A program made the translations under genes and the position numbers. From the IMG/VR virus record IMGVR_UViG_3300025000_000077, positions 11,261 to 75,260 of that record: a stretch of 64,000 bases of DNA. One strand, written 5' to 3'. This DNA comes from a virus. Each line of letters opens with the position of its first letter. Position 1 is the stretch's first letter. The notes under the pieces were generated by a model that saw only the letters and a program-made list of their open reading frames with translations, was not told the DNA's origin and searched no databases. Shown in pieces: positions 1,040 through 49,083 of this stretch.

Positions 1040-2451
1040 TGAATCGCCTCAAAGAACTTCTTCCAGTGTCCCTCTAGTTCCCCTCGCAGTTCTTCCTCGA
1101 TTTCTTCTCTTGTTTGGAGCAACTGATTAGATTTGATGTCCTCTTTTATTTCATCCTCTGTTTGAACTTCATCTTTAGGTGCTTCCTCTTCGGCTGGCTC
1201 GTTTTCCTGCTGGATACTTGTCTCAGACCACTCCTGCCCGGCTTTCATCAAAAATTTACTATCCGCATCTTCCAGCCCCCAAAATGTCCGAACCTCATTC
1301 ATACTTCCGACAACCGCGCCCTTCTCGGTATAGGCTTTTAGAATTTCAAGCCCCTTCTGGAAGTCCAATTCTTCATTCTTGAATTCCGGCTCAGGGAGTT
1401 TCAATTCAACGGAAAAACCTGAAAAACCGTTCCATTCTAAAATCCTGGTAAAATAAGGTATCCACGGTTTGAGCATCTGTTTTTGTAGTCCAATGATAGC
1501 ACTCTTGAATAAACTTGTCTCGCCAGCAGTCGACCCACCAATAAGAGTTCCATCCTTCGCGGTGAAGTCTTTTGAGAAAATAATACTCAGGATAAGTTTA
1601 GTGAGTTCGTTTATGGTATCAAGAGCAATCCCGGAAACAGGCCCGTCCAGTTCAATAGGCTCCATATCCGGGCCAATCGTAAAATAAGTATTTCTGTTAT
1701 AATTTTTGAGGATATTATTTGAATAATTCCAGTTCGAGGTTTTCCCATCCGACAGCATCCCGGGCTTATTGATCCTCATGAAAAGCACGTTAGCCCGGAG
1801 ATTCGCCTGCATGAGCCCATCCCAAGCCATGCCCATTTTTGGAATCAGCTTGTACACAGGAGTTAAAATAGGCACACCATCAACATTATAAGAATAGATA
1901 TGCGATTTAAAATGATGACAGGGTTCTATTTCAATCGTTCCGCCCTGCTGATCCTGCCAGTAATGGATAATACCATCGGCTTCACGGACAATCCCTCGTA
2001 GGATTTTTCCATAAACACTATCGGTTCCGTAATTTCCAGCCGTTCCAAAAGTTTCAGGTGGTAAATCTCTGATCTCAGTTACCTGGATTTTTCCATCTAC
2101 TTCTTCGATTGTATCTGAGAATATGAATGCAGGCCAGAATATCCGAGCATTAGCCGATTTATACAGGACGTCCTCGAATTCAATGTCCTGCAACATGATC
2201 CTGAACCACCCGGCTATATCTTCTCTGGAGTTTCCCCTCTGGTCCAGGATATTACAGATGAAAGGACCCTGAAAAATTAAATTTAAGATGTTGTTGGCTA
2301 CCATCACAGCATAAATATCAGATCTGTATTTGTTGATTTTTTCAACGTCGAGTTCTCCCACGTCCCACGGGTTGCCCCCGTCAAAATATGTTAGTATATA
2401 ATCTTGACCTGTGGCTTTAGATAATACAGGTTTAGCTCCGTTCTTAGTCAT
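1036..2451 (-). CDS. Portal protein
   Basis: 471 aa. C-terminal pattern (RILEWNGF...SMNEVRTFWGLE plus acidic tail) is typical of portals. Adjacent to head genes. Confidence 0.75.
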   Translation of the reverse strand: MTKNGAKPVLSKATGQDYILTYFDGGNPWDVGELDVEKINKYRSDIYAVMVANNILNLIFQGPFICNILDQRGNSREDIAGWFRIMLQDIEFEDVLYKSANARIFWPAFIFSDTIEEVDGKIQVTEIRDLPPETFGTAGNYGTDSVYGKILRGIVREADGIIHYWQDQQGGTIEIEPCHHFKSHIYSYNVDGVPILTPVYKLIPKMGMAWDGLMQANLRANVLFMRINKPGMLSDGKTSNWNYSNNILKNYNRNTYFTIGPDMEPIELDGPVSGIALDTINELTKLILSIIFSKDFTAKDGTLIGGSTAGETSLFKSAIIGLQKQMLKPWIPYFTRILEWNGFSGFSVELKLPEPEFKNEELDFQKGLEILKAYTEKGAVVGSMNEVRTFWGLEDADSKFLMKAGQEWSETSIQQENEPAEEEAPKDEVQTEDEIKEDIKSNQLLQTREEIEEELRGELEGHWKKFFEAIQ

Positions 2452-2624: not shown

Positions 2625-3686
2625 ATGCGCGAATTTTTTACAGAACGGAGCTACCCTTTGAAAAACGTTCATGAAGCTATCTTGGAACGCCTAGACTGGA
2701 CTCAAAAAAAGGATGGGTTTACACATTACTATCCAGTTTCCGAGTTCCAAAAGGCACTCCCCACTTTTGAAAATATTCCCGTTATTTATGCCGCGCGCCA
2801 TCCTCCTCTTGGAGTCCGAGGAAAGAACCTCGAAGATGTGCTGAGAGAAGTCGACGGCACGCTCGCGGGATACACGGAAAACGTTTTAATTAATTCTGCA
2901 GGCTCTCCGAAGTTAAAAGCTCTGTTACAAATTACTAACGAAGATGTTGAAGCCAGAATCCAGGCTGGAAAAATCTCAATATCTCCCTCTTTTTCTCACA
3001 ATCAAATTTTAAACGGTCCCCTTGAAAACATCACCGGTGACCACGTTTTACTTTATGATAGTGATCTTGGTATCCCTCAGGGAGATGCCACCGCTATCAT
3101 TTGCAATCAAGATTCCACGAATTTCACTCTAAATCATGGAATAGGCTATTTTGAAGGAGTCAATATGACAGGCGAAATAAAAACAATCGACATGGACCTC
3201 TACAACGACCTCCTAAGCCTGAAAAATAATCAGGCGGTCATAGTAGACAATGAAAAAACTATCCTGAAGCTCAATCAGGATCTCGAAAAGAAGGACGATT
3301 CCATCCTGAAACTTAATCAGGATCTCACCGCAGAAAAGGAAACAGTCCTCAAACTGAATCAGGCACTTGAAGAAACCAAAAAGCAGGTTTCCGCGCTTGA
3401 AACTCAGATCAAGGAAGACGCTGAAAAAGTCTTCAAACAGAATCAAGATTCTTTTTGGACTGAATTGCCAGAGGGCATTAAAGATCAGTTCAAAGAAAGG
3501 AAGGAAGAACTGTATTCGGTTACCACTGCCCTGAAACTCAACCAGGATATTAATAAATCTCTCCTGAAAATGGAAAAGCCTGACCTACACAAGGCAACCG
3601 GCGAACAGGCAACCCCCGACATGAAACAGAATCAGGATACCAAAGAAGCTGAAGAAGCGTGGGATGCCACAGAGGAGCGGATCTAA
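2625..3686 (+). CDS. Capsid maturation protease-scaffold fusion (alternative start TTG 2658)
   Basis: N-terminal HPP...SISPSF...DHVLL domain. C-terminal coiled coil with repeated LKLNQ. Lies before the decoration and capsid genes. Confidence 0.7.
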   Translation: MREFFTERSYPLKNVHEAILERLDWTQKKDGFTHYYPVSEFQKALPTFENIPVIYAARHPPLGVRGKNLEDVLREVDGTLAGYTENVLINSAGSPKLKALLQITNEDVEARIQAGKISISPSFSHNQILNGPLENITGDHVLLYDSDLGIPQGDATAIICNQDSTNFTLNHGIGYFEGVNMTGEIKTIDMDLYNDLLSLKNNQAVIVDNEKTILKLNQDLEKKDDSILKLNQDLTAEKETVLKLNQALEETKKQVSALETQIKEDAEKVFKQNQDSFWTELPEGIKDQFKERKEELYSVTTALKLNQDINKSLLKMEKPDLHKATGEQATPDMKQNQDTKEAEEAWDATEERI

Positions 3687-15103: not shown

Positions 15104-15131
15104 AATAAAAAAAAGAACGGAGCTAAAAAAA

Positions 15132-15839
15132 ATGGTATATGTGAACAGCGCGGCAACCGTGGCTAGAGGCGTAATCGTAAAAATAAACGGCGTGGCAATC
15201 GCTGAAATTATTGACGAAGGTATCCCTAAACCACAAACCACTACAGACGACATCGAAGTAACAAATCAGGATTCCGGAGACTGGAAGGAATATAAAGCGG
15301 GTAGGAAGGACGGGGGAGAAACTGAGATTAAGGGTCACGCGGTCCCATCAGACCAGGGACAGACCGATCTAGCGGCAGCAGCAGCAGCCGGGTCCACGTG
15401 CCTTTTTAGAGTGGATTTCCCGTCAGGTTCTTATCTTACTTTCAACGGGACAGTCAAAACGTTCGATACATATGTAGAAGGGCAAATCCTTGTGTTTACC
15501 TCAAAAGTAAAAATATCAGGGGCCCCTTCGTTCTCGTCCACCAAGAGCGCGTTGACTACCCCATACTTCTCGGCTGCATCCTCGACCTCGGTATTCCCGG
15601 CGGCATCTGGTACAGAAGGCACTTATGTAATTAATTTTGCAAACGGTACTGCCAGTACTAAAATTACTCCTACTGCAACAGCCGGCGTAATCCAGGTCAA
15701 TGGTGTAACAGTTGGGACCGGCGCAGAATCTGCCTCTATAGATCTCACAGCCGGGGCAATCGTGGAATGTACGGTAACCATACAGGAAACAACAAAAGCA
15801 GTAAGTGTGTACAAATTGCTTCTCTGCAGAGCTGCGTGA
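15132..15839 (+). CDS. Major tail tube protein with C-terminal Ig/cadherin-like domain
   Basis: DIEVTNQDSGDWKEYKAGRKDGGE...FPSG...FNGTV pattern of siphoviral tube proteins. Confidence 0.8.
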   Translation: MVYVNSAATVARGVIVKINGVAIAEIIDEGIPKPQTTTDDIEVTNQDSGDWKEYKAGRKDGGETEIKGHAVPSDQGQTDLAAAAAAGSTCLFRVDFPSGSYLTFNGTVKTFDTYVEGQILVFTSKVKISGAPSFSSTKSALTTPYFSAASSTSVFPAASGTEGTYVINFANGTASTKITPTATAGVIQVNGVTVGTGAESASIDLTAGAIVECTVTIQETTKAVSVYKLLLCRAA

Positions 15840-23863: not shown

Positions 23864-25050
23864 TGCTCTGGTTTTTCCGCCCCCGGATCAGTATTCAAAA
23901 ACCTAATGGGCAGAAATACTACCCAAAACAAGTTACTGCATCAGTGACCGATGCTTATCCTTATTCAGATGCCCCCTATGCCCAAATAGAACTCGCTACG
24001 AATAGAAGTCCAGAAACTGCCGAGTACATCAATCCAGTCGAGGAGGATGATATCGTCAGGGTCCAGGTATCCTGTCGAATGTCGGAAAAGGAAAAATGTG
24101 TATTTGTGGATCTTTTTGAGGGTCGAGTCCGGTCCATAGATGGGGAGTACAACACAAAAAACAATACTACCGTCTCATGCAGAGGGCACATAGATGAGGC
24201 AGCAAAACTTCTTATCGATGAGTCTAAAACGTGGACCGGGACTATAGAGGCGAGAACCATTTTAGGCGACCTGGTTACTCCTGCCCGCCATGTTTCCCGA
24301 CTTACGTGGCTGAATCAGGCTCCTCATGTTGATCAAAGTGGGGTAGTTAGTTTTACTGATCCCGAATCCGCATATGCAACAAAAGCAGATCAAACTTATT
24401 TATCAAGTGTATTCAAGGATCTTGAAAAAGAGTCGGGGAGCACTTGGAAAATAGGTACTAAGAGCACTTATACGGTGGGAGGCTCACTCGACAAAACGTA
24501 TCTGACGTGGAAAAAACTTGATACCACACCCACAAATAAATACAAAGCGATCCAGGGAACTGCCCGTTATCTAGGTAGCAATTTTGAAATTTCCATTGAA
24601 GACCAGGCGACCCAGGTTAAAATAAAAGGGGACACTCCCACCAGTGGAACTCAGTACACTGGAACAGCTACGGATGCAACCGCAGTTGCTAGATATGGAT
24701 ACAAAACAGATGTAGACATCTACTCTCAATTACAGAGCAATGCGACATGTGCGAGTATTGCTGCAGGTATCCTCCCGTCTAAAGTTTCAGCCAGTATTTC
24801 AGGTACTATAAAATTAGTTGGCACACCTGAAGCTCATCCGGGAGACATGGTTTATGTGAGATCGAGGAGCACGGAATTGAACGGAGCAATTGTCGCAGGG
24901 AATTTTAACGTTTATCGCGTCAGACATAATATCACATCGTCTTCCTATACTACAGAAATACAAGTCGGTGGAATAATAACCGATGCATACGATCTGATAA
25001 AAAACATAAAAACAATAGCAGTAACTACAAAATGTAATCAGGTAAAATAA
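23863..25050 (+). CDS. Baseplate hub / tail tip protein
   Basis: LFEGRVRSI and PGDMVYV...VYRVRHNI patterns; position after the distal tail gene. Confidence 0.65.
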   Translation: MLWFFRPRISIQKPNGQKYYPKQVTASVTDAYPYSDAPYAQIELATNRSPETAEYINPVEEDDIVRVQVSCRMSEKEKCVFVDLFEGRVRSIDGEYNTKNNTTVSCRGHIDEAAKLLIDESKTWTGTIEARTILGDLVTPARHVSRLTWLNQAPHVDQSGVVSFTDPESAYATKADQTYLSSVFKDLEKESGSTWKIGTKSTYTVGGSLDKTYLTWKKLDTTPTNKYKAIQGTARYLGSNFEISIEDQATQVKIKGDTPTSGTQYTGTATDATAVARYGYKTDVDIYSQLQSNATCASIAAGILPSKVSASISGTIKLVGTPEAHPGDMVYVRSRSTELNGAIVAGNFNVYRVRHNITSSSYTTEIQVGGIITDAYDLIKNIKTIAVTTKCNQVK

Positions 25051-25067
25051 AACGGAGCTAAAAAAAC

Positions 25068-29980: not shown

Positions 29981-30308
29981 TAAACTTATTCACTTCATTC
30001 AACACAAGCTCAGAAACAGATTTTACCATCTTATATTTTCTCATTAAGTGGTAATCCCAACCTTCCCCAAACTCACATTCACAGACATCAAAATCAGGAT
30101 CTACTCCATACGGCTGTTCGTCCCAATCGAAATCTGGATCAGTCATTTTTTACACACACCACGCATCCACTTAATACCGGAATATCTATTTTAACTTCCA
30201 AATCTTCACAAAAACCATTTTTCAGACTTTCGCATGAGATACAATTTTTCGATTGTAATATATTGAAACTTTGGGGGTCATCCATTTATGCTCTCCTTTT
30301 TTATCCAC

Positions 30309-30497
30309 CTATTTAAGTTTCTTAATAGCTTTTTCTAGGTCTGTTATATGGGATTCCCACCGCATAAGATCCTCCTCATCGTCTGTTTTGTAGTACCGAA
30401 CTGAAGCTGGGTCTTTAACCCATTTAACATTTGATTTAAGCAGATCTAGTTCATTTTGAAGAATTTCTATGGCATATGACATTTTATTCACTCTCAT
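30309..30497 (-). CDS. Small coiled-coil hypothetical protein
   Basis: Amphipathic helices. Confidence 0.4.
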   Translation of the reverse strand: MRVNKMSYAIEILQNELDLLKSNVKWVKDPASVRYYKTDDEEDLMRWESHITDLEKAIKKLK

Positions 30498-30627
30498 TTA
30501 ACTTTAAATTAAAATCTCCCACAGTCCCAATCGGTACAGGGAGCACATTTATTATATTCTCCGATGATTTGTTGTCTTCATCTTTGAGTAATATTCGTGT
30601 TGGTCTCATTTTTATTATTTTAGACAT

Positions 30628-30858
30628 TTATTCCAACTCCTTACCTGTCCACTGATAATATTCAGGATCGTCAGAAGGTGCGTTTTCGACCTTCTCGATA
30701 ATTCCTTTGTCAATCAATGCTCTTAAGGTGTTTCCTGTGAAACCTGGGACGGATTTCAATTCAACTGAAGTAAACTTTCTTCCATTCTCCCAAGCATTCA
30801 ACTGTTTAATTTTGTCTAATGTAGATTCTTGTATTCCTGTCCGTGTCATAGTTACCAC
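30628..30858 (-). CDS. Winged-helix DNA-binding protein
   Basis: FTSVEL...TLRALIDKGIIEKV...YYQW pattern. Confidence 0.55.
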   Translation of the reverse strand: MVTMTRTGIQESTLDKIKQLNAWENGRKFTSVELKSVPGFTGNTLRALIDKGIIEKVENAPSDDPEYYQWTGKELE

Positions 30859-31059
30859 ATTGTAGCTTAGTTGCTATGTTACTATACAACTTATAGGTAT
30901 AAGTACTTAACTGAAAATAATAACATGTGAATAAAAGTAACAATTCAAAATGAAACTCAAAAATAGTTTTATTACCGAGAGTAATACAAAAAAACAGGTT
31001 GGTATGTAATTATAATACAAAACGTATTACTCGGATGTGGTTTTATAAAAAGTGAAAAA

Positions 31060-31761
31060 TCAAGAAGAACATTCTTCGGATTTCAGATTATTATATTCTT
31101 CTTTTGTATAATAACATTTATAATCATATTTCTCTTTTAAAATTGTCTTGAAATAATCTTCCCATCTATCTCTATCAAAGTTTGTTTTCCCATGACATTC
31201 TTCACAAAGTGGAACCATCATCACTTTAGAACTGTCACAACATGCATTTTTATTATAGTCTACGTGATGAACATATAACATCTTACGATTGTCTTCTTGT
31301 GGTTTCCCACATAGAAAACATTTATTCCCAAAAAACGATCTCACCCTTCTTTTTAAATCAGCATTGAATTTACTGCAGTATATTCCATAATTAACTCCAC
31401 CACGCCAGTTTTTAGAAAGCCACCCTGTATTTAACAACCCATTCTTCTCCCGTATGGGTTTCATAGCAATGCGAACACATTTATCACTACAATATTTCCG
31501 ATTTCCTTCGAAACTATAATTTATGTAAAATATTGTGTTGCATACAGGACACTCAACTGCATTGCATTTATACACCGTTTTGTGTTTTCCATTTTCGCGG
31601 TCTCTAACATCTTTTGGTAAATCTAAAAATGATATTTCCCCTGCTTTACATTTTTTTAACAGGTATCTATCCATGCAGTTTTCAGAACAAAAATGAAGTT
31701 CTTTATATATATGATCACACATATTGATTACAGGTTCTCCACAGCACAAACAATAAATCAT
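31060..31761 (-). CDS. Zn-finger HNH endonuclease
   Basis: FCSENC and YCSDKC Zn knuckles, NWRGG, CFLCG...VHHVDYN...LCEECH. Confidence 0.85.
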   Translation of the reverse strand: MIYCLCCGEPVINMCDHIYKELHFCSENCMDRYLLKKCKAGEISFLDLPKDVRDRENGKHKTVYKCNAVECPVCNTIFYINYSFEGNRKYCSDKCVRIAMKPIREKNGLLNTGWLSKNWRGGVNYGIYCSKFNADLKRRVRSFFGNKCFLCGKPQEDNRKMLYVHHVDYNKNACCDSSKVMMVPLCEECHGKTNFDRDRWEDYFKTILKEKYDYKCYYTKEEYNNLKSEECSS

Positions 31762-31763
31762 AT

Positions 31764-32423
31764 TTAAGCCTCTCTGTTTTTCTTTACCCTCTCTTCATCA
31801 TCCCATCTTTCAACCCACCGATAAAGCGTAGATGCCGGGATCTGCATCACTCTAGCAATCTGAGCAGTTTTTAACCCCTGTGTTTTCCACTTAAGATATT
31901 CTTTCTTGTCCGGCTGTCTCTCCGGTCTACCTATTACTTTTCCTTCCTCTCTTGCCCTCTCGATGCCTAACTTTGTTCTTTCAACTAGAGAGTTCCTTTC
32001 AAGTTCCGCAAACCAACTAAATAAAGCAGAAAATATATTTCGTATTCCAGGGATGTCTGTAATCTTAGTCCATGTTTCATTATTTGATAGTGAAATTATT
32101 ACAGTGCCGTATGATTCGATCTCTATGAACAGTTGTAAAGATTCGATAGATGTTCTTCCAAGTCTCGATATCTCAAAAATATATAACTTATCAACTTCTC
32201 CATTTTGCACACGTTCAAATATATGTTTAAATCCATTCCTTTTCTTTGCAGGCGTTAAACTGGAAACACCTTCGTCACCGTAAATGTTTGAAGGTTCTAA
32301 CCCAAGCTCACGCAGTTTACGCAATTGATTTGAAATGTTCTGTTCATCTCTTGATGTTCTGGCATAACCCAAAGACACTTTGTTTTTTTCTTCGATTACC
32401 ATAACTATATTTATGGTTACCAT
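31764..32423 (-). CDS. Small serine recombinase (resolvase/invertase family)
   Basis: GYARTS catalytic Ser, ISRLGR, AELERNSLVERTKLG...GRP, C-terminal HTH. Confidence 0.93.
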   Translation of the reverse strand: MVTINIVMVIEEKNKVSLGYARTSRDEQNISNQLRKLRELGLEPSNIYGDEGVSSLTPAKKRNGFKHIFERVQNGEVDKLYIFEISRLGRTSIESLQLFIEIESYGTVIISLSNNETWTKITDIPGIRNIFSALFSWFAELERNSLVERTKLGIERAREEGKVIGRPERQPDKKEYLKWKTQGLKTAQIARVMQIPASTLYRWVERWDDEERVKKNREA

Positions 32424-32868
32424 ACTATTTAAACATTGCTCAATCGTTTAAAGTAATATAAAACGGTCGTTTATGGTAATATATGACGGCTTGTATAATT
32501 GAAATATGATATAAAAAAGATATAAATCCATTCTAAACATCGGCGGTTTTATATAATATTACAATAAATCAAATACATTAATTATAATCCAAATTATTAA
32601 TCTCCCCAAATACCCAACCCACACCACGTCCCACACAAAAACTCTACCCTAAACAAACAAAAAACCATACAAAACGCATAGCAAAAAATAACCGATGCCG
32701 TTTTAATGTTCAAGGAGTATAAAACAGTATAAGAAACTTAACACCCAAAATAAAATAAAAACCTTAAAATACTATGAAGAAATATTAAATGTGCCTCAGT
32801 GTACTACCCCACATTGAGACTCAAATCCTCTGAAAAACAGACCTCTTCTTCCTTAGAAAAACGAGCTG

Positions 32869-32947
32869 AAAAACCGCCAGGAGTTGAACGGAGCTAACGT
32901 TAAGAAACCTGGCGGTATCTCATGCAGTGTGCAAAACACTCTGCAAC
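32869..32947 (-). ncRNA. Putative ~80-nt small RNA with two hairpins; loop carries UUAGCUCCGUUC
   Basis: Hairpin 1 at 32923-32945. Perfect 9-bp stem at 32873-32881/32908-32916 followed by U5. TATA-like box ~26 nt upstream. Intergenic. Confidence 0.6.
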
Positions 32948-32964
32948 TACTATTTTATGTTCTA

Positions 32965-32986
32965 CCCCTATATATTATTTTGGTAT
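32965..32986 (-). promoter_or_regulatory. BRE/TATA-like promoter for the putative sRNA
   Basis: Minus strand reads CCAAAATAATATATAGGGG, centred ~26 nt from 32947. Confidence 0.5.
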
Positions 32987-33276
32987 TATTTTATTATATC
33001 CTCGGATATCCATTTCTGAAGTTATAATAATATATAATTATACCGCAGCCGTTTTTAAAAAAAAGAAAGTTGAATTAATTTTTATAAGTCGGGCTGATTC
33101 CAATAATCAGGCTCTTTATCGGGAGTCTGTGGGATGAATTCAACATTATACAGACATGTCCTGCCGTCTGGTGTATCCTCCGAGGTGGTGGGATATATCT
33201 TTTGCATCGCCCTGAAACTGGTAAAAGGGATTTGAGAGCAGTGCTTATGCCAATAGAGAGGGATATCAAGGGGCAT

Positions 33277-33735
33277 TTAATTTGTCCTCCCGGAGAGTGT
33301 CGTATCCTCCCTGGATACTGCGAGCAGTTTGTCAATTTTTGAAATAATTCCGTCGATGTTATACGGGCGGACAAACGTTGTGTTTTCATTCAGGGGGTCT
33401 GAGTCAATTTCAAACCCCTCCTCTATGACATTATCCGGGGCTGTGTCAGTCACGCGCCCGGTGAGTTGATCCCACTCCGTAATAAACGATCTTGCCAGGT
33501 CGTGCTCACTGCCTGTTATTGTGTCGAGTGAGACGAAACCACCGGTTACGGCATCATAGATGGACCATTTGTCTGACGGTTTTGAGCTGTCGACTTGCAG
33601 TCCGAGTCTGGCGTTAAGTTGATAATTTCCGGTTACTCGGCTGGGGTTGATTTTAAAATCTCTATGCTTCTCTGCCATTTCGATAAGATGATTTTCTAAC
33701 ATTAGTTCCATGATGTGTGCCCCCGTTATACCCAT
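33277..33735 (-). CDS. Hypothetical protein
   Basis: 152-aa ORF coupled to the upstream gene. Confidence 0.55.
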   Translation of the reverse strand: MGITGAHIMELMLENHLIEMAEKHRDFKINPSRVTGNYQLNARLGLQVDSSKPSDKWSIYDAVTGGFVSLDTITGSEHDLARSFITEWDQLTGRVTDTAPDNVIEEGFEIDSDPLNENTTFVRPYNIDGIISKIDKLLAVSREDTTLSGRTN

Positions 33736-34118
33736 TTTAAAGCGGCAGTTGGTTTGACATCAGTGGTCTTCCTGAACTCCAGAACTTCAGGATGAGTCTC
33801 AGCGTAGGTATCAATGGCCTTGGTATCATATGATGTCCTCACAGCTCCTTTTCTGTATTTGAGCTCTACAAAATCACATTCAAAGTTTGACTGAGATTCA
33901 ATTATGTAGTCCTTTGCTTTTTGGATCAAGTTCTCTGCGTATTCCTGCTGCGGTTTGATATTATCCAGTGTGTGATACGCAACTTTAAGAGTGTTTTTTA
34001 AAAGATCGTCGGTTGCGTCCTCTTGTGTTTTCCCAAAGCCCGCCGGACTAACTCCGATATTAATAAAATCTTCAAATGTTGCACACCAATCTGAACCATC
34101 TAAAAATATTTTTATCAT
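33726..34118 (-). CDS. Hypothetical protein
   Basis: 130 aa, preceded by GAACGGAGCTA. Confidence 0.65.
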   Translation of the reverse strand: MIKIFLDGSDWCATFEDFINIGVSPAGFGKTQEDATDDLLKNTLKVAYHTLDNIKPQQEYAENLIQKAKDYIIESQSNFECDFVELKYRKGAVRTSYDTKAIDTYAETHPEVLEFRKTTDVKPTAALKWV

Positions 34119-34119
34119 G

Positions 34120-34275
34120 TTAATTAGCTCCGTTCTGGATCTGATCTAATAATTCCTCATTCTCTGTTTTCAGTCTCTCTAATTCTATTTTGAGCTGTTC
34201 AATTTCCTCGTCTTTTTCATCCAGTTCGCTCTCAAGATCACTGAGCATGTCTATTATTTTAGATATTTGCACCAT
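34120..34275 (-). CDS. 51-aa coiled-coil protein (not in ORF track)
   Basis: MVQISKIIDMLSDLESELDEKDEEIEQLKIELERLK..., preceded by GAACGGAGCTA. Confidence 0.65.
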   Translation of the reverse strand: MVQISKIIDMLSDLESELDEKDEEIEQLKIELERLKTENEELLDQIQNGAN

Positions 34276-34291
34276 TGTTATAGCTCCGTTC

Positions 34292-35068
34292 TTATTTTCT
34301 CCTTATCCCTAATGTTCGCTCATAATCCTCAAATCTCGACTTTATGATTTCTTTTCGGTCATCTGATCGGATTACTACACCCTCGGCTAACCCACTGTGA
34401 CCATTTATGCCCGCATGTGTTGTCCTGTACGACTGTAAAAAATCATATGTTTCTTCGATGCCTGTCGGGATATCGCGCCCGTATAGGTTCCCGCAAAAGG
34501 GTACTTGTTCGAGATTGAAACGTATACAAAACTCAGACCGGCCTTCTGTGTTAAAAAACGACTGCCCGCCATTGTCTCTCCAATTTGCGATTTGTTCACG
34601 AGGCATTTTAAGAAGTGATATATATTCAATTGGGTTTATATACATCACATCAAAAACTCTAACATCGTAGGTTTTCGAGTCAGTGTACTGTTTTGTAGCC
34701 TGGAGTTTACCGCCGTACAACTCCGAAAATATTGTATAAATGCCTTTTGGGATATTGTTCTGTATATCAATAGATATTTTTTTGCAGTCGGTTAGAGAAT
34801 TGTCCACGATGTCAAGGGATGGATTTATTATCCTGTCTCCTTCAGCGTGGAGCAATTCTTCCCGTGATCCGATCACGTAATCGCAATAAGATGAATTTAT
34901 AAAAATCTTTCTCGTGTTTGTCCCATCTATTTTTTCAGATACGTGATATATCCTATCTGGATCGAGTGTGACTGATAATTCTGGCTGTAACCTGCCCCGG
35001 TTGCCCATTTTGTGATATGTTTTTATTTCCGGGTATTTAGTCATCGAATTTAGTTTGTTAAAATCCAT
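34292..35068 (-). CDS. ATP-dependent RNA ligase (Rnl2-like)
   Basis: Nucleotidyltransferase motifs EKIDGTN, ELYG, FDV, EGVV, K.R. Start set by the motif at 35074-35084. Confidence 0.85.
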   Translation of the reverse strand: MDFNKLNSMTKYPEIKTYHKMGNRGRLQPELSVTLDPDRIYHVSEKIDGTNTRKIFINSSYCDYVIGSREELLHAEGDRIINPSLDIVDNSLTDCKKISIDIQNNIPKGIYTIFSELYGGKLQATKQYTDSKTYDVRVFDVMYINPIEYISLLKMPREQIANWRDNGGQSFFNTEGRSEFCIRFNLEQVPFCGNLYGRDIPTGIEETYDFLQSYRTTHAGINGHSGLAEGVVIRSDDRKEIIKSRFEDYERTLGIRRK

Positions 35069-35243
35069 TGTTATAGCTCCGTCCATATACTCTAATTTTA
35101 AAATTGACAACTGTTAAACGATCATTTAAATGATCAATTTTCCTTGAGTCCCTTTCACTCTGCAAACTTTTGAGAATCGCTGCCTTCTCGTCGATTAGAT
35201 ATTGTTTCCTAAGTGGGATCTCAACGCATTGCAATTTATTCAC
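35058..35243 (-). CDS. Hypothetical protein
   Basis: Coupled to neighbours. Confidence 0.45.
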   Translation of the reverse strand: MNKLQCVEIPLRKQYLIDEKAAILKSLQSERDSRKIDHLNDRLTVVNFKIRVYGRSYNNGF

Positions 35244-35804
35244 TCCCTACAAAGTAGGCCCGCCCGCTTTCAAGCATCTCAAACCATGCCCTTGAATCTA
35301 CAAAATACTTCATATCCCCGGATGTAGCCGGACGATATTTACCGGTTGAGTTTTCGAGGTCTTCTGCGAGGAGGGGACGTTTTGAGAACTCCTCTATGTA
35401 TAGGTTTCCTGATTTGATCAGTGCCCACATTACCCGGATACAGTGGCTCAGAATACCACCATCCCGAGATAAGCTTCTGATTTTGAATACCGCAGGCACA
35501 GAGGCAATTCCTGCCCGAATAACGTGTCATACATGATTGAGCAATGATCACAGGATAATTCGTTGCATGAGACTGTAGGGAGTATCAGAGAGGCTATTAC
35601 CGGGAGTTCCATCAAGCTCTCACCTTCGTTTTACATCTTCCCTTCTTGGACGATGTGAATATTACCCATATTGAATTGAAATACATCATTGTTTTTTGTT
35701 TTCGGGCAGCCATCTTCAAAACACCCTTACCCTAAGTTTCTTTTTGATACCACATGCCCGGTATCTTCTCTCTGCAAGTCGGCGGCCAATGAGGTTTGTA
35801 GGGA

Positions 35805-35957
35805 TCATGCGCTGATCCCTCTTAGGTATATAGTATCTACAGCGCATTTGTCGCCGTCATCAAATTTAACAAGGGTTTCGTCTTCGTTTCCCTGTAGAAC
35901 AGTACCGCATGTTTTCATCTTTCTGAATTGTACTCTGGTTCCAATTTTGAAACTCAT
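35805..35957 (-). CDS. Small SH3/Tudor-like protein
   Basis: MSFKIGTRVQF...GTV...LVKFDDG; preceded by GAACGGAGCTA. Confidence 0.55.
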   Translation of the reverse strand: MSFKIGTRVQFRKMKTCGTVLQGNEDETLVKFDDGDKCAVDTIYLRGISA

Positions 35958-36119
35958 TTTCATAGCTCCGTTCTTTTTGTGAGGATCACGTTTTTCTATA
36001 CTAATACTACACACTTATGACATATAAACTTTACTATTAATCGATTATTAATGGGTTGTTGGAAGATTTACAGTTGATTATCAATAGATTTATATGTGAT
36101 AAAAGCATATAGGATACAT

Positions 36120-36293
36120 ATGGCAGCGATGGATAAACAGATAGTTGTCAGTGATTTTGTTGACGAGTATCTAAAAAACATGAAGGACGACGAAAGTCAT
36201 TCGAACATTGATTCAGTAATAAGAACACTGATTCATGAAAGTGAAGCGTATAGAATGATGAAACCGAAGAGAAAAGCGAGGAAACAAGAATGA
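36120..36293 (+). CDS. Ribbon-helix-helix-like DNA-binding protein
   Basis: KQIVVSDFVDEYLKNMK...SNIDSVIRTLI; TATA box ~25 nt upstream. Confidence 0.55.
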   Translation: MAAMDKQIVVSDFVDEYLKNMKDDESHSNIDSVIRTLIHESEAYRMMKPKRKARKQE

Positions 36294-36586
36294 AAAATGA
36301 AAACAACACACTTACTGCTTGCAAGCCAGATGATCAAACTGAATACATAAACAAAATAATAGGGAACTTTGAATATATTAAAAAAGATATTAACAAAGTA
36401 CAGAAATTGTTGGGTGATTCTCCACAGAATAAATTAAGAAGCTTTGAAAATATCTCGAAATCCAGATTATATGCTAAAGAGATAAGGGAATGTGCAGATT
36501 GGATTATTAAGCAGACTGTACAGCTTGAAGAAGATATAATTATATGGGGAGATTCGAGGAATGAGAATCTCACGGACTCAACCTAA
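36290..36586 (+). CDS. Hypothetical helical protein
   Basis: ATGA overlap with the upstream gene. Confidence 0.45.
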   Translation: MKNENNTLTACKPDDQTEYINKIIGNFEYIKKDINKVQKLLGDSPQNKLRSFENISKSRLYAKEIRECADWIIKQTVQLEEDIIIWGDSRNENLTDST

Positions 36587-36629
36587 AACATATGTGGTAT
36601 AAATTAAAAGTTGAACGGAGCAAACAATT

Positions 36630-36785
36630 ATGAAAGTCGCATATCTCAGAAAAGCAAACCCAGACGCCGTAAAAAGAATAACATCCTATCCGATCCAAAA
36701 GCACGGCAATCTATTTTTCGAGGGATTATTTATCTCCGCGCTGATTGCCGACCCACTCAGAATGAATCTAATAGAGGCGGTTTGA
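36630..36785 (+). CDS. 51-aa hypothetical protein (not in ORF track)
   Basis: MKVAYLRKANPDAVKRITSYPIQK..., preceded by GAACGGAGCAA. Confidence 0.55.
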   Translation: MKVAYLRKANPDAVKRITSYPIQKHGNLFFEGLFISALIADPLRMNLIEAV

Positions 36786-36921
36786 ATGCCCGCTGAGGAT
36801 TCTGATTTCTGGAATAATCCTGAATACTGTTTTTTCAGACCCGTTGGGTTATGTGAACATCCAGAAACAAGGGCGATGGAGAGTGTAATAAGAGAAATTG
36901 TCCATTTGAGGATGGGATATA

Positions 36922-37347
36922 ATGACTGAAATTAGAGTTTTAGCAGTCAGGCAACCCTGGGCAAGTCTCATTGTAGAGGGTTTAAAAACAATTGAAGTGA
37001 GAAGCAAACCTACGAATATTCGTGAGAGGGTGGCGATTTATGCGAGCCGTAACTACAACAGAGAAGATTTCCTAAAGTTGCGGGAAAATCCAAATTATAT
37101 TATGAGATCATGGGATTTTGGAAAGATTTTAGGAACTGTTGAAATTGTTGCTTCGTCTGGTTGCAACGATGAAGTTGAATACGCACTGAATAAAAGAGAA
37201 CATTCAGCACCAGATGAGTATTTCAATGAAGGAAAAACCTATTTTTGGCATTTAAGAAGACCTGTTAAATTCGAAACACCGATTCCCTACAAACCACCAA
37301 AGGGCGCGGTTGTGTGGTCAAAAACAGAACTACCGGAGGGATATTAA
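36922..37347 (+). CDS. ASCH domain protein
   Basis: VRQPWASLIVEGLKTIEVRS signature. Confidence 0.9.
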   Translation: MTEIRVLAVRQPWASLIVEGLKTIEVRSKPTNIRERVAIYASRNYNREDFLKLRENPNYIMRSWDFGKILGTVEIVASSGCNDEVEYALNKREHSAPDEYFNEGKTYFWHLRRPVKFETPIPYKPPKGAVVWSKTELPEGY

Positions 37348-37589
37348 TGCCAGCATTTGAATTAGAAACTGAACTTTTTGATTATTATAGAAAACATGCC
37401 GGGAAACTAGGATGTAAACAGTGCTTTGACGAAAAGAAGGACGAGATTAGGGCAATGAACCGAGAGGGGGCGGACGGGGGCCCTAACTGTCTATGTAAGG
37501 TCGATACCCCCTGCCCATGTGATGACGTTGAAATAGATCTCCTCGTAGATGGGATATGTTATTGTGAGATTTTCGTGTTGGATTGCTAA
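37347..37589 (+). CDS. Ferredoxin:thioredoxin reductase catalytic-subunit-like Fe-S protein
   Basis: CLC-x5-CPC-x12-CYC.IF, like the CPC/CPC/CHC triad. Confidence 0.6.
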   Translation: MPAFELETELFDYYRKHAGKLGCKQCFDEKKDEIRAMNREGADGGPNCLCKVDTPCPCDDVEIDLLVDGICYCEIFVLDC

Positions 37590-37641
37590 GAATTTTGAAA
37601 TTACCGAATGATTTTTTTGAAAACTGAACGGAGCTATTGAT

Positions 37642-38166
37642 ATGATAATTGCATTCGAAGGCGCGGACAAATTAGGAAAAACAACTCAGGCTAAATTATT
37701 GGCCGAGAAATTGAACTGTAAATATATTAAATTCCCGAATGAAGAATTATACAGTGGGAAAATAATAAGACAGATTATTAATAAAGAACTTCCATTCGAG
37801 CCGGTTTCGTTTCAAGCGTTGCAGACTATGAACCGGTTAGAAACCTTTGAAAATATCGATTTCGAACAGTTGTATATATTCGACAGATACAAACTATCCG
37901 GGGTTGTTTACGGGCTGGCTGACGGCCTCCCGGAAGAATGGATCAGAGAAGTTTGTGATTTGTTGCCGGACCCTGATTACACGATCGTTTTTACCGGCGA
38001 ATCGTATGGAAAGGACTCGGATATCTACGGTGAAAAACAGTATAAGATCAGACAGTTGTATCATAATGAAATTGTTGTATATAGATATCCGTGGATTGAT
38101 GTGAGTGGCCGAACCATTGAAGAGGTACATGGTGAAATTTTAAAGATGGTGGAGGGGGTATTATGA
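37642..38166 (+). CDS. tmk: Thymidylate kinase
   Basis: IAFEGADKLGKTTQ P-loop, KFP, FDRY, PDPD. Confidence 0.92.
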   Translation: MIIAFEGADKLGKTTQAKLLAEKLNCKYIKFPNEELYSGKIIRQIINKELPFEPVSFQALQTMNRLETFENIDFEQLYIFDRYKLSGVVYGLADGLPEEWIREVCDLLPDPDYTIVFTGESYGKDSDIYGEKQYKIRQLYHNEIVVYRYPWIDVSGRTIEEVHGEILKMVEGVL

Positions 38167-39076: not shown

Positions 39077-39951
39077 TGCCGACTGAAATTCCCACATTCG
39101 AGGACATTGTAATAAAACATCGTTTGATCCAATTTTCGAACGGAGATAAAGAAGAACTTGAAGAACTCTTAAGCATTTATTACGATGAGAAATGCACTAT
39201 CAAAGTGGAAATCCCCGGCAATGAAAACAGGAAAGCTTATTCCGAGGACGAAATAGGTTTTAAACCCGTACCGATGCCGAAAAAGTCCACAAAAAAAGGA
39301 AAAGAGGAAGAATCACAGACAGGTGACTATTCATTCCAATTTTCAAATGAGACAGGCATTGAAAAACGTTTGAAAATCCGGTTTGAGAGGAAGAGCGTAG
39401 AGGATTTTTGCGGGACTGTAATAAATAATTGGGGTCGGTTTTTGGCGGAATTGGAAAGAGCCAGATTCAATCCTGAAATTGAAGATTTTAGAATAGTGGT
39501 GGAGGGCGATAGGCTTCAGGCCCTTACGTTTTTTTTCCCATATCCTAAAATATGCAAATATTGTGAGAGTATCGGGTACAGGATGGAAAATAAAAAAAGG
39601 AAGTATTATTGTCGGATAACCGGAAAGGATGTAAATTACAATTCGAATTGTAGGCAGTTGAGAGTCAAGAAGCGGAGTCCAAAACAGATCGCTCAACTGA
39701 TATCATTCAAAAGAAAGAAAATCGGGCTGATCGAGGCGATGGGCTTTCCTATTGAATGGTGTGGGAGCCGGGGGGAGGCAGCGACCCACATAAATGTGGC
39801 GGTGAAACAGTATTTTATAGTTCATTATGAGGAGATTTTAGGTTTGAATGCGGGTTTTAAGTTGGTTGGGGAGGATAAGGACACTTTGACTTTTAAGGCG
39901 GATGGGACTATATTTCGGGTGTTGAAAACAGCAGTGGACGTCCTAGCATGA
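39073..39951 (+). CDS. ERCC4/XPF-family nuclease with Cys4 insertion
   Basis: TGDY...FERKSVEDF...ELER...IVVEG. Confidence 0.8.
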   Translation: MMPTEIPTFEDIVIKHRLIQFSNGDKEELEELLSIYYDEKCTIKVEIPGNENRKAYSEDEIGFKPVPMPKKSTKKGKEEESQTGDYSFQFSNETGIEKRLKIRFERKSVEDFCGTVINNWGRFLAELERARFNPEIEDFRIVVEGDRLQALTFFFPYPKICKYCESIGYRMENKKRKYYCRITGKDVNYNSNCRQLRVKKRSPKQIAQLISFKRKKIGLIEAMGFPIEWCGSRGEAATHINVAVKQYFIVHYEEILGLNAGFKLVGEDKDTLTFKADGTIFRVLKTAVDVLA

Positions 39952-42074: not shown

Positions 42075-42113
42075 AAATAAATATTCAAATAACGTTGGAA
42101 CGGAGCTAATAAA

Positions 42114-44873: not shown

Positions 44874-44903
44874 CAATTAAAAACCGATGAACGGAGCTAC
44901 AAT

Positions 44904-46469: not shown

Positions 46470-46497
46470 TCCTCGTAAAAAGAACGGAGCTAAAACA

Positions 46498-47808: not shown

Positions 47809-49083
47809 ATGGCATTCAAACCTGGAATCTTTTCTGAAAAACAGATTGATGTGATGGCAAACTGTGACATGGGTATAAATTCTTTAGTAGGGTCCGTCAG
47901 ATCTGGTAAAACAATCGCATCGCTCCTTGCGTTTTTAATTCGCATAATGGAATACCCCGAATGTAACATAATGCTGATAGGGAAATCAGATAAAACGTTA
48001 TATAGGAACGTCCTGATGCCCCTAAAGGACATCGTAAGACCATCTAATTTTAAGTACAATCGAATGACAGGTGAAGGCGTCCTCTATAAAAAATACAATT
48101 TTTACACGGCTGGGGCATATGATGAAAAATCCCTTGAAAAAATCCAGGGTATTACACTCGCGCTGGCATACGGTGATGAAGTCACCACATGGCCGGAATC
48201 GTTCTTCCAGATGTTGTTATCTCGGTTGTCAGAGAATAACGCGAAGTTCATTGGAACCATGAATCCAGGGGGGCCCTACCACTGGTATAAAGTAAATTTC
48301 CTCGATAGACAGGATAGAATATCCTTACGAAATTGGAATTTTTTAATAGAAGAAAATAAGAACCTGTCTCCGGAATATGTTACAAAGTTGAAACAATATT
48401 ATACAGGCGTTTTTTATAAAAGATACATATTGGGCATGTGGGTCCTCGCGGAAGGCGCAATTTATGACATGTTCTCGGAAGAAAAACACGTTGAAACAGT
48501 CAGGCAGGACGTTTGGGCCTCGTGTCTCTCCAAATATGTTTCAATAGACTACGGCACTAGCAACCCCTGTGTTTTTCAATTATGGGGCCACAACAACAAT
48601 AAACGATACCTAAAAAAGGAATATTACTACGACTCAAAAGAACACGGCAGGCAGAAAACAGACGCAGAATACGCCTCCGATCTTGTTAATTTCATCGGAA
48701 ATGAAATGATCCAAAGCGTGATAGTGGACCCGTCGGCAGCTTCCTTCAAGGTGGAACTCAATAATAGGGGACTATGTGTCGAAGATGCCGACAACGACGT
48801 CCTTGACGGAATTAGAGAAGTATCTACTGAGCTATCCCAGGATAAAATACAGATTGATCCATCCTGCGTGAACACCATAAAAGAATTCTCCGGGTATGTT
48901 TGGGATACAAAAGCAGGGGAACGGGGAGAAGACAAACCGTTAAAACAGTCCGACCACGGGATGGATAGCTTGAGATATTATATAAAGTCGGTTAAAATGT
49001 ATAACTTCGGTATGGATTCTCGACAAGAGGAAGTAGGTTATGGTTATTCCGAGTACACAGATGAAATCTATAACAACTATTGA
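47809..49083 (+). CDS. terL: Terminase large subunit (PBSX family)
   Basis: GSVRSGKT, YGDEV, TMNP, IDYGTSNP, VDPSAASF, DHGMDSLRY. Confidence 0.96.
   Translation: MAFKPGIFSEKQIDVMANCDMGINSLVGSVRSGKTIASLLAFLIRIMEYPECNIMLIGKSDKTLYRNVLMPLKDIVRPSNFKYNRMTGEGVLYKKYNFYTAGAYDEKSLEKIQGITLALAYGDEVTTWPESFFQMLLSRLSENNAKFIGTMNPGGPYHWYKVNFLDRQDRISLRNWNFLIEENKNLSPEYVTKLKQYYTGVFYKRYILGMWVLAEGAIYDMFSEEKHVETVRQDVWASCLSKYVSIDYGTSNPCVFQLWGHNNNKRYLKKEYYYDSKEHGRQKTDAEYASDLVNFIGNEMIQSVIVDPSAASFKVELNNRGLCVEDADNDVLDGIREVSTELSQDKIQIDPSCVNTIKEFSGYVWDTKAGERGEDKPLKQSDHGMDSLRYYIKSVKMYNFGMDSRQEEVGYGYSEYTDEIYNNY

What the first reader, a model, noticed from the sequence alone, without database searches (positions are those of the whole stretch)
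32869..32986. Predicted viral small RNA whose loop is the exact antisense of a motif at the start of many lytic genes: a candidate translational master switch
Seen: on the minus strand a BRE/TATA-like box (~32969-32984) is followed ~26 nt later by GUUGCAGAGUGUUUUGCACACUGCA (hairpin 1). Next comes ACCGCCAGG-UUUCUUAACGUUAGCUCCGUUCAACU-CCUGGCGGU and a U run: a perfect 9-bp GC-rich stem, 26-nt loop and oligo-U end. The loop contains UAGCUCCGUUC, the reverse complement of GAACGGAGCUA found at gene starts across the window. This is the only copy I found that is not at a credible start codon. Several variant targets differ only by G:U-compatible changes: MCP AACGGAGUUG, RNA ligase GGACGGAGCUA, head-tail adaptor GCGGAGCUAG. 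The site at 36609 extends the match to AGUUGAACGGAGC. This pattern fits RNA:RNA pairing better than protein binding. Inference: one trans-acting sRNA masks the initiation regions of portal, protease, capsid, tail, nucleotide-metabolism and replication genes. I saw no copy upstream of the resolvase or conjugation-like genes, which would suit silencing of the lytic programme in a carrier state. An activating or guide role is also possible. I know of no described system like this in archaeal viruses.
Basis: partly seen in the sequence, partly recalled or inferred. Interest (0 to 1): 0.93.

Follow-up and report, generated by a model that had tools for sequence, protein, structure and literature searches.

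The report
Archaeal virus RNA hairpin mirroring start tag
An uncultured archaeal tailed virus puts the same private ribosome-binding tag in front of about 16 genes and keeps one mirror-image copy in the open loop of a conserved, probably separately transcribed RNA hairpin, so one small RNA could control translation of the whole set, though no transcript has been seen.

Summary
GAACGGAGCTA (up to 1 mismatch) occurs 16 times in the window against 0.62 expected, and at least 13 copies lie 4-7 nt before an ATG on the gene's own strand. The copy at 32886-32896(+) is the only one facing the other way. It sits in the 26-nt loop of a perfect 9-bp stem.

New here: three related metagenome contigs (about 72% identical) keep this ~255-bp island between unrelated flanks. 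Each hairpin shows one compensatory swap. The loop core GCUCCGUUC is invariant. A TATA-like box lies 22-23 nt before the first hairpin on the minus strand, and T5 runs follow the second. The plus-strand ORFs are not conserved.

This fits a minus-strand small RNA of about 80-115 nt with an anti-RBS loop. Pairing with the tagged mRNAs and repression are inferred; no RNA data exist. Covariation could not be tested, because the relatives use the same tag core. The "lytic master switch / carrier state" reading and the Methanosarcina host are unsupported.

The closest analogue is the start-associated sequences (SAS) of Cluster K mycobacteriophages. I found their single reverse copy also lies in the loop of a covarying hairpin. 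This scan has noted the same layout before on other DNA, including other archaeal elements.

The parts
33049..33056 (-). T8 run ending the upstream minus-strand operon (after gene 33082-33276)
   Evidence: Sequence. A T6-T8 run is kept at the same place in L021 and L014. Its role as a terminator is inferred.
32969..32980 (-). TATA-like box AAATAATATATA with an A-rich BRE-like stretch just upstream; predicted promoter of the small RNA
   Evidence: Invariant in all four sequences, while the 22-23 nt spacer down to hairpin 1 is not conserved. Promoter function is inferred.
32923..32946 (-). Hairpin 1 (UUGCAGAGUG...CACACUGCA); the predicted 5' end of the RNA lies at about 32946
   Evidence: Fold. 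Relatives have UUGCUGAU...AUCAGCA, with one A-U to U-A swap and one mismatch repaired.
32867..32922 (-). Hairpin 2: lower stem (with G.U on this strand), a 9-bp GC-rich stem (32916-32908 with 32881-32873) and a 26-nt loop (32907-32882)
   Evidence: Folds. A C-G to G-C compensatory swap occurs in the relatives, and 12 of 12 pairs are kept.
32886..32896 (+). The one tag copy that faces against the local genes; on the minus-strand RNA it reads UAGCUCCGUUC in the loop
   Evidence: The 9-nt core and the adjoining AACGUU are invariant in the relatives, while the loop flanks vary.
32833..32873 (-). Three T5 runs (32873-32869, 32861-32857, 32837-32833); predicted termination zone giving an RNA of about 78, 90 or 114 nt
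   Evidence: repeats D6, D10. In the relatives a T3 then two T5 runs are conserved.
15115..15125 (+). Tag before the 235-aa gene at 15132 (tail region); candidate target
25050..25060 (+). Tag (1 mismatch) before the 665-aa gene at 25068; candidate target
34125..34135 (-). Tag before the 130-aa gene (ATG 34118), overlapping the end of the preceding gene; candidate target
34281..34291 (-). Tag before the 51-aa gene (ATG 34275); candidate target
35074..35084 (-). Tag (GGACGGAGCTA) before the RNA ligase gene (PF09414); candidate target
35963..35973 (-). Tag before a 50-aa gene; candidate target
36609..36623 (+). Tag with the longest match to the loop (13 contiguous nt) before a 51-aa gene; candidate target
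   Evidence: It has the best cofold gain, -13.4 kcal/mol.
37626..37636 (+). Tag before the thymidylate kinase gene (PF02223); candidate target
42098..42108 (+). Tag before the 169-aa gene just upstream of the MCM helicase gene; candidate target
44889..44899 (+). Tag before a 47-aa gene; candidate target
46482..46492 (+). Tag before a 65-aa gene; candidate target
2643..2653 (+). Tag 4 nt before a TTG start of the 342-aa gene; candidate target
2433..2443 (-). Tag inside codons 3-6 of the portal-like ORF (ATG 2451); the homologues keep the residues KNGA

Best explanation
The 32833-32980 stretch is the gene for a small non-coding RNA of an uncultured archaeal tailed virus.

Proposed anatomy, all predicted from sequence:
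- Transcription runs on the minus strand from a TATA/BRE-type promoter at about 32969-32985.
- It starts near 32946.
- It ends in a zone of three T5 runs between 32873 and 32833.
- The RNA folds into two hairpins. The second holds a 26-nt loop containing GCUCCGUUC (UAGCUCCGUUC in this virus).

That loop sequence is the exact complement of a private, extended Shine-Dalgarno tag (GAACGGAGCUA). The virus places this tag 4-7 nt before the AUG of about 16 genes in its structural, replication and nucleotide-metabolism modules.

Proposed mechanism (inferred): the loop base-pairs with the tag on these mRNAs and covers the GGAG ribosome-binding core. One RNA would then lower translation initiation of the whole tagged set together. 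The timing is unknown; it could act as a temporal shut-off, as dosage damping, or as immunity against related incoming viruses.

What is shown:
- the enrichment and placement of the tag
- the hairpin and the complementarity of its loop
- conservation of the element, with compensatory stem changes
- absence of a conserved ORF

What is inferred:
- that the element is transcribed, and its strand and ends
- that pairing occurs in vivo
- that the effect is repression
For: 1. Tag. There are 16 copies against 0.62 expected. At least 13 lie 4-7 nt before an ATG and are always sense to the gene, including positions inside operons. Other genes use ordinary GGAGG/GGTGAT sites. The tag is therefore an RNA-level start signal whose flanks go beyond pairing with 16S rRNA.

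2. Hairpin. It has a perfect 9-bp stem and a 26-nt loop, with z = -4.4.

3. Conservation. L011, L014 and L021 match the window over about 255 bp only (window 32831-33087, 70-72% identity). There is no nucleotide similarity in the flanks and the neighbouring genes differ.

4. Structure is kept. There is a C-G to G-C swap in the main stem and an A-U to U-A swap plus a repaired mismatch in hairpin 1. In all, 12 of 12 pairs (hairpin 2) and 17 of 18 cells (hairpin 1) stay paired.

5. Loop. The 9-nt anti-tag core and the adjoining AACGUU are invariant, while 6 of the other 11 loop positions differ.

6. Strand.
- The 12-nt TATA-like box is invariant, lies 22-23 nt before the first conserved transcribed base, and the spacer between is unconserved.
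- T5 runs are conserved downstream.
- The flanking genes are on the minus strand in both the window and L021.
- The lower stem has G.U on the minus strand where the plus strand would have A.C.

7. No coding. The 47-aa plus-strand ORF loses its TTG and meets a TGA in L021. The ATG at 32922 is lost in L011. The minus-strand mini-ORF is not kept either.

8. Energetics. The net cofold gain averages -7.9 kcal/mol for 16 tagged starts against -2.6 for 109 other starts.

9. Precedent. M. mazei sRNA154 and sRNA41 mask ribosome-binding sites (PMC5867862). The same layout occurs in Cluster K phages.
Against: - No RNA data exist. Every public holder of this DNA is a DNA run.
- There are only two lineages: the window, and three near-identical contigs from one metagenome. 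The covariation counts do not exceed shuffles (157/500 and 153/500).
- The relatives use the same tag core, so tag and loop are seen to be conserved together, not to change together.
- Folding energies are about equal on both strands.
- The 34-nt insertion in L011 folds better on the plus strand, with three G.U pairs.
- Part of the anti-tag (CGUU) is predicted to pair inside the loop with AACG. This lowers accessibility and could by itself explain why those bases are invariant.
- Several tag variants would mismatch the loop.
- Hairpin plus T-run is also what a plain terminator looks like.
Confidence: 0.5

Rival explanations
1. Plain transcription stop or insulator between two minus-strand gene blocks. 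The hairpins and T-runs only end or punctuate transcription. The tag copy in the loop is a leftover of an old plus-strand gene start and pairs with nothing.
For: A stem followed by T-runs has the form of a terminator. The element lies between co-directional genes. The stems could be conserved for termination or RNA stability alone.
Against: - Archaeal termination needs only oligo-T, and a T8 run already ends the upstream operon 70 nt before the TATA box.
- A relic would not keep 15 loop bases invariant while the loop flanks and the promoter spacer drift.
- The exact 11-mer is expected about 0.04 times by chance in 150 kb (my estimate from 4^11).
- No plus-strand ORF is conserved.
Confidence: 0.15
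2. Plus-strand decoy. The element is transcribed on the plus strand, so the RNA shows the tag itself (GAACGGAGCUA) in a hairpin loop. It soaks up whatever reads the tag, such as a viral translational regulator protein or the 30S subunit, in the manner of Csr/Rsm sponge RNAs.
For: - The hairpin folds equally well on the plus strand.
- The L011 insertion hairpin is better on the plus strand.
- Every other tag copy acts in the sense orientation.
- The flanks of the tag beyond GGAG suggest a dedicated reader.
Against: - No conserved TATA-like box sits at promoter distance on the plus strand, and only T3-T4 runs follow in the window.
- Both neighbouring genes run the other way.
- The lower stem has A.C mismatches on the plus strand.
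- There is a single tag copy, whereas sponge RNAs carry many.
Confidence: 0.12
3. DNA-level site. The palindromes bind a protein on double-stranded DNA, as a replication origin, a recombination site or an operator. The tag would then be a DNA motif for the same protein at gene starts.
For: The gap is AT-rich with GC-rich inverted repeats. A serine recombinase gene lies 450 bp away in the window. Compensatory changes also preserve DNA palindromes.
Against: - The tag is asymmetric, always sense to its gene, fixed 4-7 nt from the ATG, and present inside operons. This is the behaviour of an RNA signal.
- In L021 the recombinase is 3.3 kb away.
- The recombinase gene has its own repeats next to it at 32395-32489.
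- A 26-nt gap between 9-bp arms is unlike the resolvase or invertase sites I know of (my knowledge).
Confidence: 0.08
4. A real plus-strand small gene: the tag at 32886 drives a 47-aa hydrophobic peptide (TTG 32884-33027) or the 71-aa ORF from ATG 32922.
For: The 47-codon frame is open in an AT-rich gap and has a hydrophobic C-terminal half.
Against: - No ATG, GTG or TTG lies 4-7 nt after the tag.
- In the relatives TTG becomes TCG and the frame stops after 15 codons.
- Indels are not multiples of three.
- The 47-aa ORF in L021 lies elsewhere and in another frame.
- The ATG at 32922 is lost in L011.
Confidence: 0.03

Closest known systems
Start-associated sequences (SAS) of Cluster K mycobacteriophages (Pope et al. 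2011, PMC3203893; role still called unknown in PMC11373665 and PMC12699233)
   Same: - A private asymmetric 11-13-nt box built around a GGAG core.
- 11-19 copies, 3-7 nt before mostly ATG starts, always sense to the gene.
- Conserved flanks that cannot pair with 16S rRNA.
[quoted passage not shown]

I found that this reverse copy in Anaya lies in the apical loop of a hairpin. The hairpin is conserved with 15 compensatory pairs across nine Cluster K phages.
   Different: - The sequence is different (GGGATAGGAGCCC) and so is the host domain, so this is an analogue and not a homologue.
- SAS are confined to the non-structural arm, whereas here structural genes are tagged too.
- No ESAS-like upstream inverted repeats were seen here.
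- In Cluster K the loop's match to the SAS falls to about 9-10 of 13 outside subcluster K1, while the SAS stays the same.
- No RNA partner has been proposed in the SAS papers I read.
Methanosarcina mazei sRNA154 and sRNA41 (archaeal intergenic sRNAs; review PMC5867862)
   Same: These are archaeal trans-acting small RNAs whose loop carries an anti-RBS sequence. They mask ribosome-binding sites, several of them within polycistronic mRNAs in the case of sRNA41, and repress translation initiation.
   Different: They are cellular, regulated by nitrogen, with a few metabolic targets that use the ordinary SD. Here the RNA is virus-encoded and matches a private tag shared by about 16 viral genes. No sequence relation is known, and Rfam gave nothing.
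Antisense immunity RNAs of phages P1/P7 (c4) and P4 (CI RNA)
   Same: Each is a small phage-encoded hairpin RNA whose loop sequences pair with short repeated target sequences on the phage's own transcripts, at or near an RBS, to block expression (from my own knowledge; c4 is mentioned in PMC8198154).
   Different: They have two or so targets in one operon, are made by processing of a longer transcript, and are bacterial. No match to any Rfam family, c4 included, was found at E up to 10.
Staphylococcus RNAIII / RsaE-type C-rich loop sRNAs
   Same: Hairpin loops complementary to the SD region of many mRNAs, giving regulon-wide translational repression (my own knowledge).
   Different: Those are cellular and target the generic SD through short UCCC motifs. 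Here an 11-nt loop matches a virus-specific tag exactly.

Membership tests
SAS-type start tags (Cluster K mycobacteriophages) | Short asymmetric motif, more than 10 copies, far above chance | tested here: met
   16 copies against 0.62 expected. For comparison, Anaya has 17 against 0.84.
SAS-type start tags (Cluster K mycobacteriophages) | Copies lie a few nt before start codons (mostly ATG), sense to the gene, contain the SD core, and have conserved flanks beyond rRNA pairing | tested here: met
   At least 13 copies lie 4-7 nt before an ATG. Other genes use GGAGG/GGTGAT. The GAAC and CTA flanks are conserved.
SAS-type start tags (Cluster K mycobacteriophages) | A single reverse-oriented copy that is not at a gene start | tested here: met
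   32886-32896(+) is the only copy antisense to the local genes. The same holds in L011, L014 and L021.
SAS-type start tags (Cluster K mycobacteriophages) | Sequence GGGATAGGAGCCC and restriction to the non-structural arm | tested here: not met
   The motif is different, and the tags also precede tail, portal and capsid-region genes. This is an analogue, not a member.
Trans-acting anti-RBS small RNA (sRNA154/sRNA41 type) | Discrete transcript with its own promoter and terminator | tested here: inconclusive
   A conserved TATA-like box at -23 and conserved T5 runs are present, but there are no RNA data.
Trans-acting anti-RBS small RNA (sRNA154/sRNA41 type) | Unpaired loop complementary to the RBS of its targets | tested here: met
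   An 11-nt exact complement lies in a 26-nt loop. A predicted 4-bp inner helix covers part of it.
Trans-acting anti-RBS small RNA (sRNA154/sRNA41 type) | Pairing lowers translation of the targets | not testable with these tools
   Only cofold energies are available: -7.9 against -2.6 kcal/mol.
Phage c4 / other curated RNA families (Rfam 15) | Match to the family covariance model | tested here: not met
   No relevant hit at E up to 10 over 32300-33300.
Csr/Rsm-type decoy RNA | Several hairpin loops each showing the bound motif | tested here: not met
   There is one tag copy only in the element.
Conserved structured RNA (general) | Base pairs kept through compensatory changes in relatives | tested here: inconclusive
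   Two double changes and no broken stem pair, but only two lineages. The shuffle controls are not exceeded.

The most novel reading that the evidence does not exclude
Private start tags plus one antisense hairpin RNA may be a general viral circuit found in both prokaryotic domains. A virus marks a gene set with its own extended ribosome-binding tag and encodes a single small RNA whose loop pairs with all of them. That RNA could time or silence their translation, or exclude related incoming viruses. If so, it would explain the unexplained SAS of Cluster K mycobacteriophages, whose reverse SAS copy I find in a covarying hairpin loop. It would also show that the same solution arose in an archaeal tailed virus.
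Probability: 0.35. Interest if true: 0.85.

Novelty: new variant of a known kind. Interest (0 to 1): 0.7.

Why it matters
I know of no described virus-encoded trans-acting regulatory RNA in archaeal viruses. The purpose of phage start-associated sequences has been open since 2011. Here a conserved RNA element offers a concrete partner for such a tag: one RNA against about 16 ribosome-binding sites.

The parallel in Cluster K mycobacteriophages makes the idea testable at once. Those phages are cultured, can be engineered, and already have RNA-seq data.

If the idea is right, it adds a regulon-scale, RNA-only layer of translational control to virus biology in both prokaryotic domains. It would also give a compact orthogonal tag/anti-tag pair for engineering. 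If it is wrong, the element is still a conserved non-coding module of unknown role in a poorly sampled archaeal virus group.

Tried and rejected
- **RNA evidence:** no RNA holder is listed for this DNA. The contigs laid from X1 and X3 are identical over the element. X5 (wastewater, probably DNA) holds only short fragments nearby.
- **Searches for relatives that found nothing:**
  - phages blastn
  - IMG/VR by neighbour proteins and by the portal
  - IMG/VR by loop patterns
  - GTDB genomes
- **Chance hits:** L002, L003-L038 (except L011, L014 and L021), L039-L069 and L080-L101. They have high GC or are coding, and have no blast similarity.
- **Orphan neighbour:** the 152-aa neighbouring protein has no homologues.
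- **Host:** the protein atlas search with MCM did not resolve a lineage.
- **Rfam:** nothing.
- **Readings considered and rejected:**
  - Plus-strand 47-aa or 71-aa ORFs, because they are not conserved.
  - The tag as a promoter element, because there is no fixed TATA spacing and it occurs inside operons.
  - The hairpin as the recombinase site, because it is 3.3 kb away in L021.
  - Extended pairing of the tag with the 16S 3' end, because other genes show a canonical SD and so only GGAG would pair.
  - A box C/D guide, because I saw no C or D boxes by eye.

Full report
**What the window is.** The window is bases 11261-75260 of a 75,260-bp IMG/VR viral contig. CheckV estimates it as 72% complete. 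It comes from a groundwater metagenome.

It encodes these recognisable proteins:
- an HK97-type capsid protein
- a Mu-type portal
- a large terminase
- long tail proteins
- an MCM helicase
- thymidylate kinase and thymidylate synthase
- an RNA ligase
- a small serine recombinase with an HNH nuclease next to it

MCM, AT-rich TATA-like boxes and oligo-T runs point to an archaeal host. The lineage was not resolved, so "Methanosarcina" is a guess.

**The tag.** GAACGGAGCTA with up to one mismatch occurs 16 times in the window against 0.62 expected, and none of 100 shuffles reached 16. Over the whole contig at least 13 copies sit 4-7 nt before an ATG. One sits 4 nt before a TTG. All are sense to the gene, and some lie inside operons or overlap the end of the preceding gene.

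Most other genes have ordinary GGAGG or GGTGAT sites. The host ribosome therefore has a canonical anti-SD, which would pair with only the GGAG of the tag. The conserved GAAC and CTA flanks need another reader.

Tagged genes are spread over the structural, replication and nucleotide-metabolism modules. None lie in the left 8 kb of the contig or in window 47.3-64 kb. This is the pattern that Pope et al. (PMC3203893) named start-associated sequences (SAS) in Cluster K mycobacteriophages.

**The element.** The copy at 32886-32896(+) is the only one that faces against its neighbours. All flanking genes are on the minus strand. It lies in the 26-nt loop of a perfect 9-bp stem, and a second hairpin stands beside it. 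Both strands fold far better than shuffles.

No start codon follows the tag at the usual spacing. Rfam has no match.

**Relatives.** Protein-based and exact-pattern searches of IMG/VR, the phage records and GTDB genomes found nothing. One degenerate pattern scan of JGI metagenome contigs gave 36 hits. Of these, 33 are high-GC chance matches. Three are true relatives from one metagenome: L011, L014 and L021.

They share 70-74% nucleotide identity with the window in patches. Around the element the similarity is an island of about 255 bp (window 32831-33087). The sequence on either side is unrelated or replaced. In L021 the recombinase is 3.3 kb away instead of 0.45 kb, and the gene sets on both sides differ.

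**What is conserved** (alignments):
- The main stem is kept through a C-G to G-C double change. All 12 tested pairs are intact.
- Hairpin 1 keeps its outer three pairs. It has an A-U to U-A double change and a repaired mismatch, and its inner part is replaced.
- In the loop, the 9-nt anti-tag core and the adjoining AACGUU are invariant. Six of the remaining 11 positions differ.
- On the minus strand a 12-nt TATA-like box is invariant. It lies 22-23 nt before the first conserved base of hairpin 1, and the spacer between them is not conserved. This is the signature of a promoter.
- T5 runs downstream on the minus strand are kept, as is a T6-T8 run that ends the upstream operon.
- The plus-strand ORFs are not kept. 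TTG becomes TCG, a TGA follows after 15 codons in L021, indels are not in threes, and the ATG at 32922 is lost in L011.

With only two lineages, the covariation counts do not beat the shuffle controls. The support is qualitative.

**Which strand.** Folding energies do not decide this.

For the minus strand:
- the conserved TATA-like box at promoter distance
- the conserved T-runs downstream
- the orientation of both neighbouring genes
- G.U pairs in the lower stem that would be A.C on the plus strand

For the plus strand:
- a 34-nt insertion in L011 forms a hairpin with three G.U pairs only on that strand

I put about 0.75-0.8 on the minus strand. On that strand the RNA carries the anti-tag.

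**Mechanism.** The relatives use the same tag core, GAACGGAGC, with a variable 3' end, again 5-8 nt before an ATG. Again their only reverse copy is the loop.

Cofolding the 78-nt RNA with start regions gives a mean net gain of -7.9 kcal/mol for 16 tagged starts. For 109 other starts the mean is -2.6. The tagged leaders are flanked by A-rich, unstructured sequence. That fits occlusion of an open site better than activation by unfolding.

By analogy with M. mazei sRNA154 and sRNA41 (PMC5867862), the likeliest action is masking of the ribosome-binding site. Timing and purpose are unknown. The "lytic silencing in a carrier state" idea has no support, because the tag marks many kinds of genes and the recombinase linkage is not conserved.

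**Parallel in Cluster K mycobacteriophages.** Pope et al. remarked that K1 phages have one reverse SAS copy that is not at a gene start. In Anaya I find 16 sense copies and one reverse copy.

The reverse copy lies in the unannotated gp96/gp97 gap. On the gene strand it reads GCGCGG-CCUCCUAUCC-CCGCGC, so the anti-SAS is in a hairpin loop. The region is conserved in 182 Cluster K records.

In nine phages RNAalifold predicts 48 pairs, 15 of them with compensatory double changes. The inner stem varies only from G-C to G.U, which fits an RNA on the gene strand. Rfam has no family for it.

One caveat applies. In Ekdilam the SAS is unchanged (14 exact copies), yet the loop matches it at only about 9 of 13 positions. 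The Syra333/Bryler loops also match the K1 SAS consensus only in part (about 8 of the first 10 positions; their own SAS was not read). Recent papers still call the SAS role unknown (PMC11373665, PMC12699233).

**Earlier notes of this scan.** After I had reached this reading, a look-up showed that the scan has noted the same layout in many phage genomes. It also noted two other archaeal elements, one with the related box TCGGAGCTAA. These are unchecked AI notes and not independent evidence. I could not fetch that related virus.

**Verdict.**
- A conserved non-coding element that displays the anti-tag is well supported.
- Its transcription, its pairing with the tags and its repressive effect are inferred.
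- The mechanism is a new variant of a known kind, the anti-RBS small RNA. It is attached here to an SAS-like private tag and seen in an archaeal virus.

Noticed in passing
L070 47861-47890 (Mycobacterium phage Anaya JF704106, record about 59860-59889); alignment A6: The single reverse SAS copy of Cluster K phages sits in the apical loop of a two-tier hairpin in an unannotated gap. The region is conserved in 182 records. RNAalifold gives 15 compensatory pairs in nine phages. Outside subcluster K1 the loop's match to the SAS drops to about 9-10 of 13.
   Followed up: partly
window 32395-32489: Just upstream of the serine recombinase start there are two tandem 23-nt repeats (32444-32466 and 32467-32489) and a 10-nt perfect inverted pair, ATTACCATAA / TTATGGTAAT. 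These are likely the recombinase's or a regulator's own binding sites, separate from the hairpin.
   Followed up: no
window 32560-32780: An odd C/A-rich tract on the plus strand (GC skew down to -0.6, AT skew up to +0.44) lies between the recombinase promoter region and the RNA element. It is absent from the relatives.
   Followed up: no
window 2433-2443(-), 24879-24889(+), 34125-34135(-), 39138-39148(+): Whenever the tag lies inside an ORF it is read in the frame AAC-GGA-GCx (Asn-Gly-Ala/Asp). The portal homologues P0002 and P0003 keep 'KNGA' at residues 3-6 while the residues around them vary. Either the portal's true start or a target site within its first five codons may be conserved.
   Followed up: partly
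L011 2353-2386 (minus-strand order, between hairpin 1 and the linker): A 34-nt insertion found only in L011 forms a 13-bp hairpin with three G.U pairs on the plus strand only. It may be a small inserted palindrome, and it is the one hint against the minus-strand reading.
   Followed up: partly
window 32800-32810 and 32958-32968: GGGGTAG(A/T)ACA (minus strand) occurs twice: right after the TATA-like box and again after the T-run zone. The downstream copy (GGGGTAGA..CTGAG) is kept in the relatives. It may mark a second start site for the downstream genes.
   Followed up: no
window 30000-38000, run X5: A wastewater run (labelled RNA-Seq, probably DNA) holds short contigs 93-100% identical to parts of 32173-33464. 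Close relatives therefore also occur outside groundwater. No contig over the hairpin was among the pieces listed.
   Followed up: partly
window 1036-2451(-) and 47809-49083(+): The portal-like gene (its homologues carry PF06074) and the large terminase gene lie 45 kb apart on this linear contig. This suggests the contig is a circular permutation, or that the packaging module is unusually arranged.
   Followed up: no
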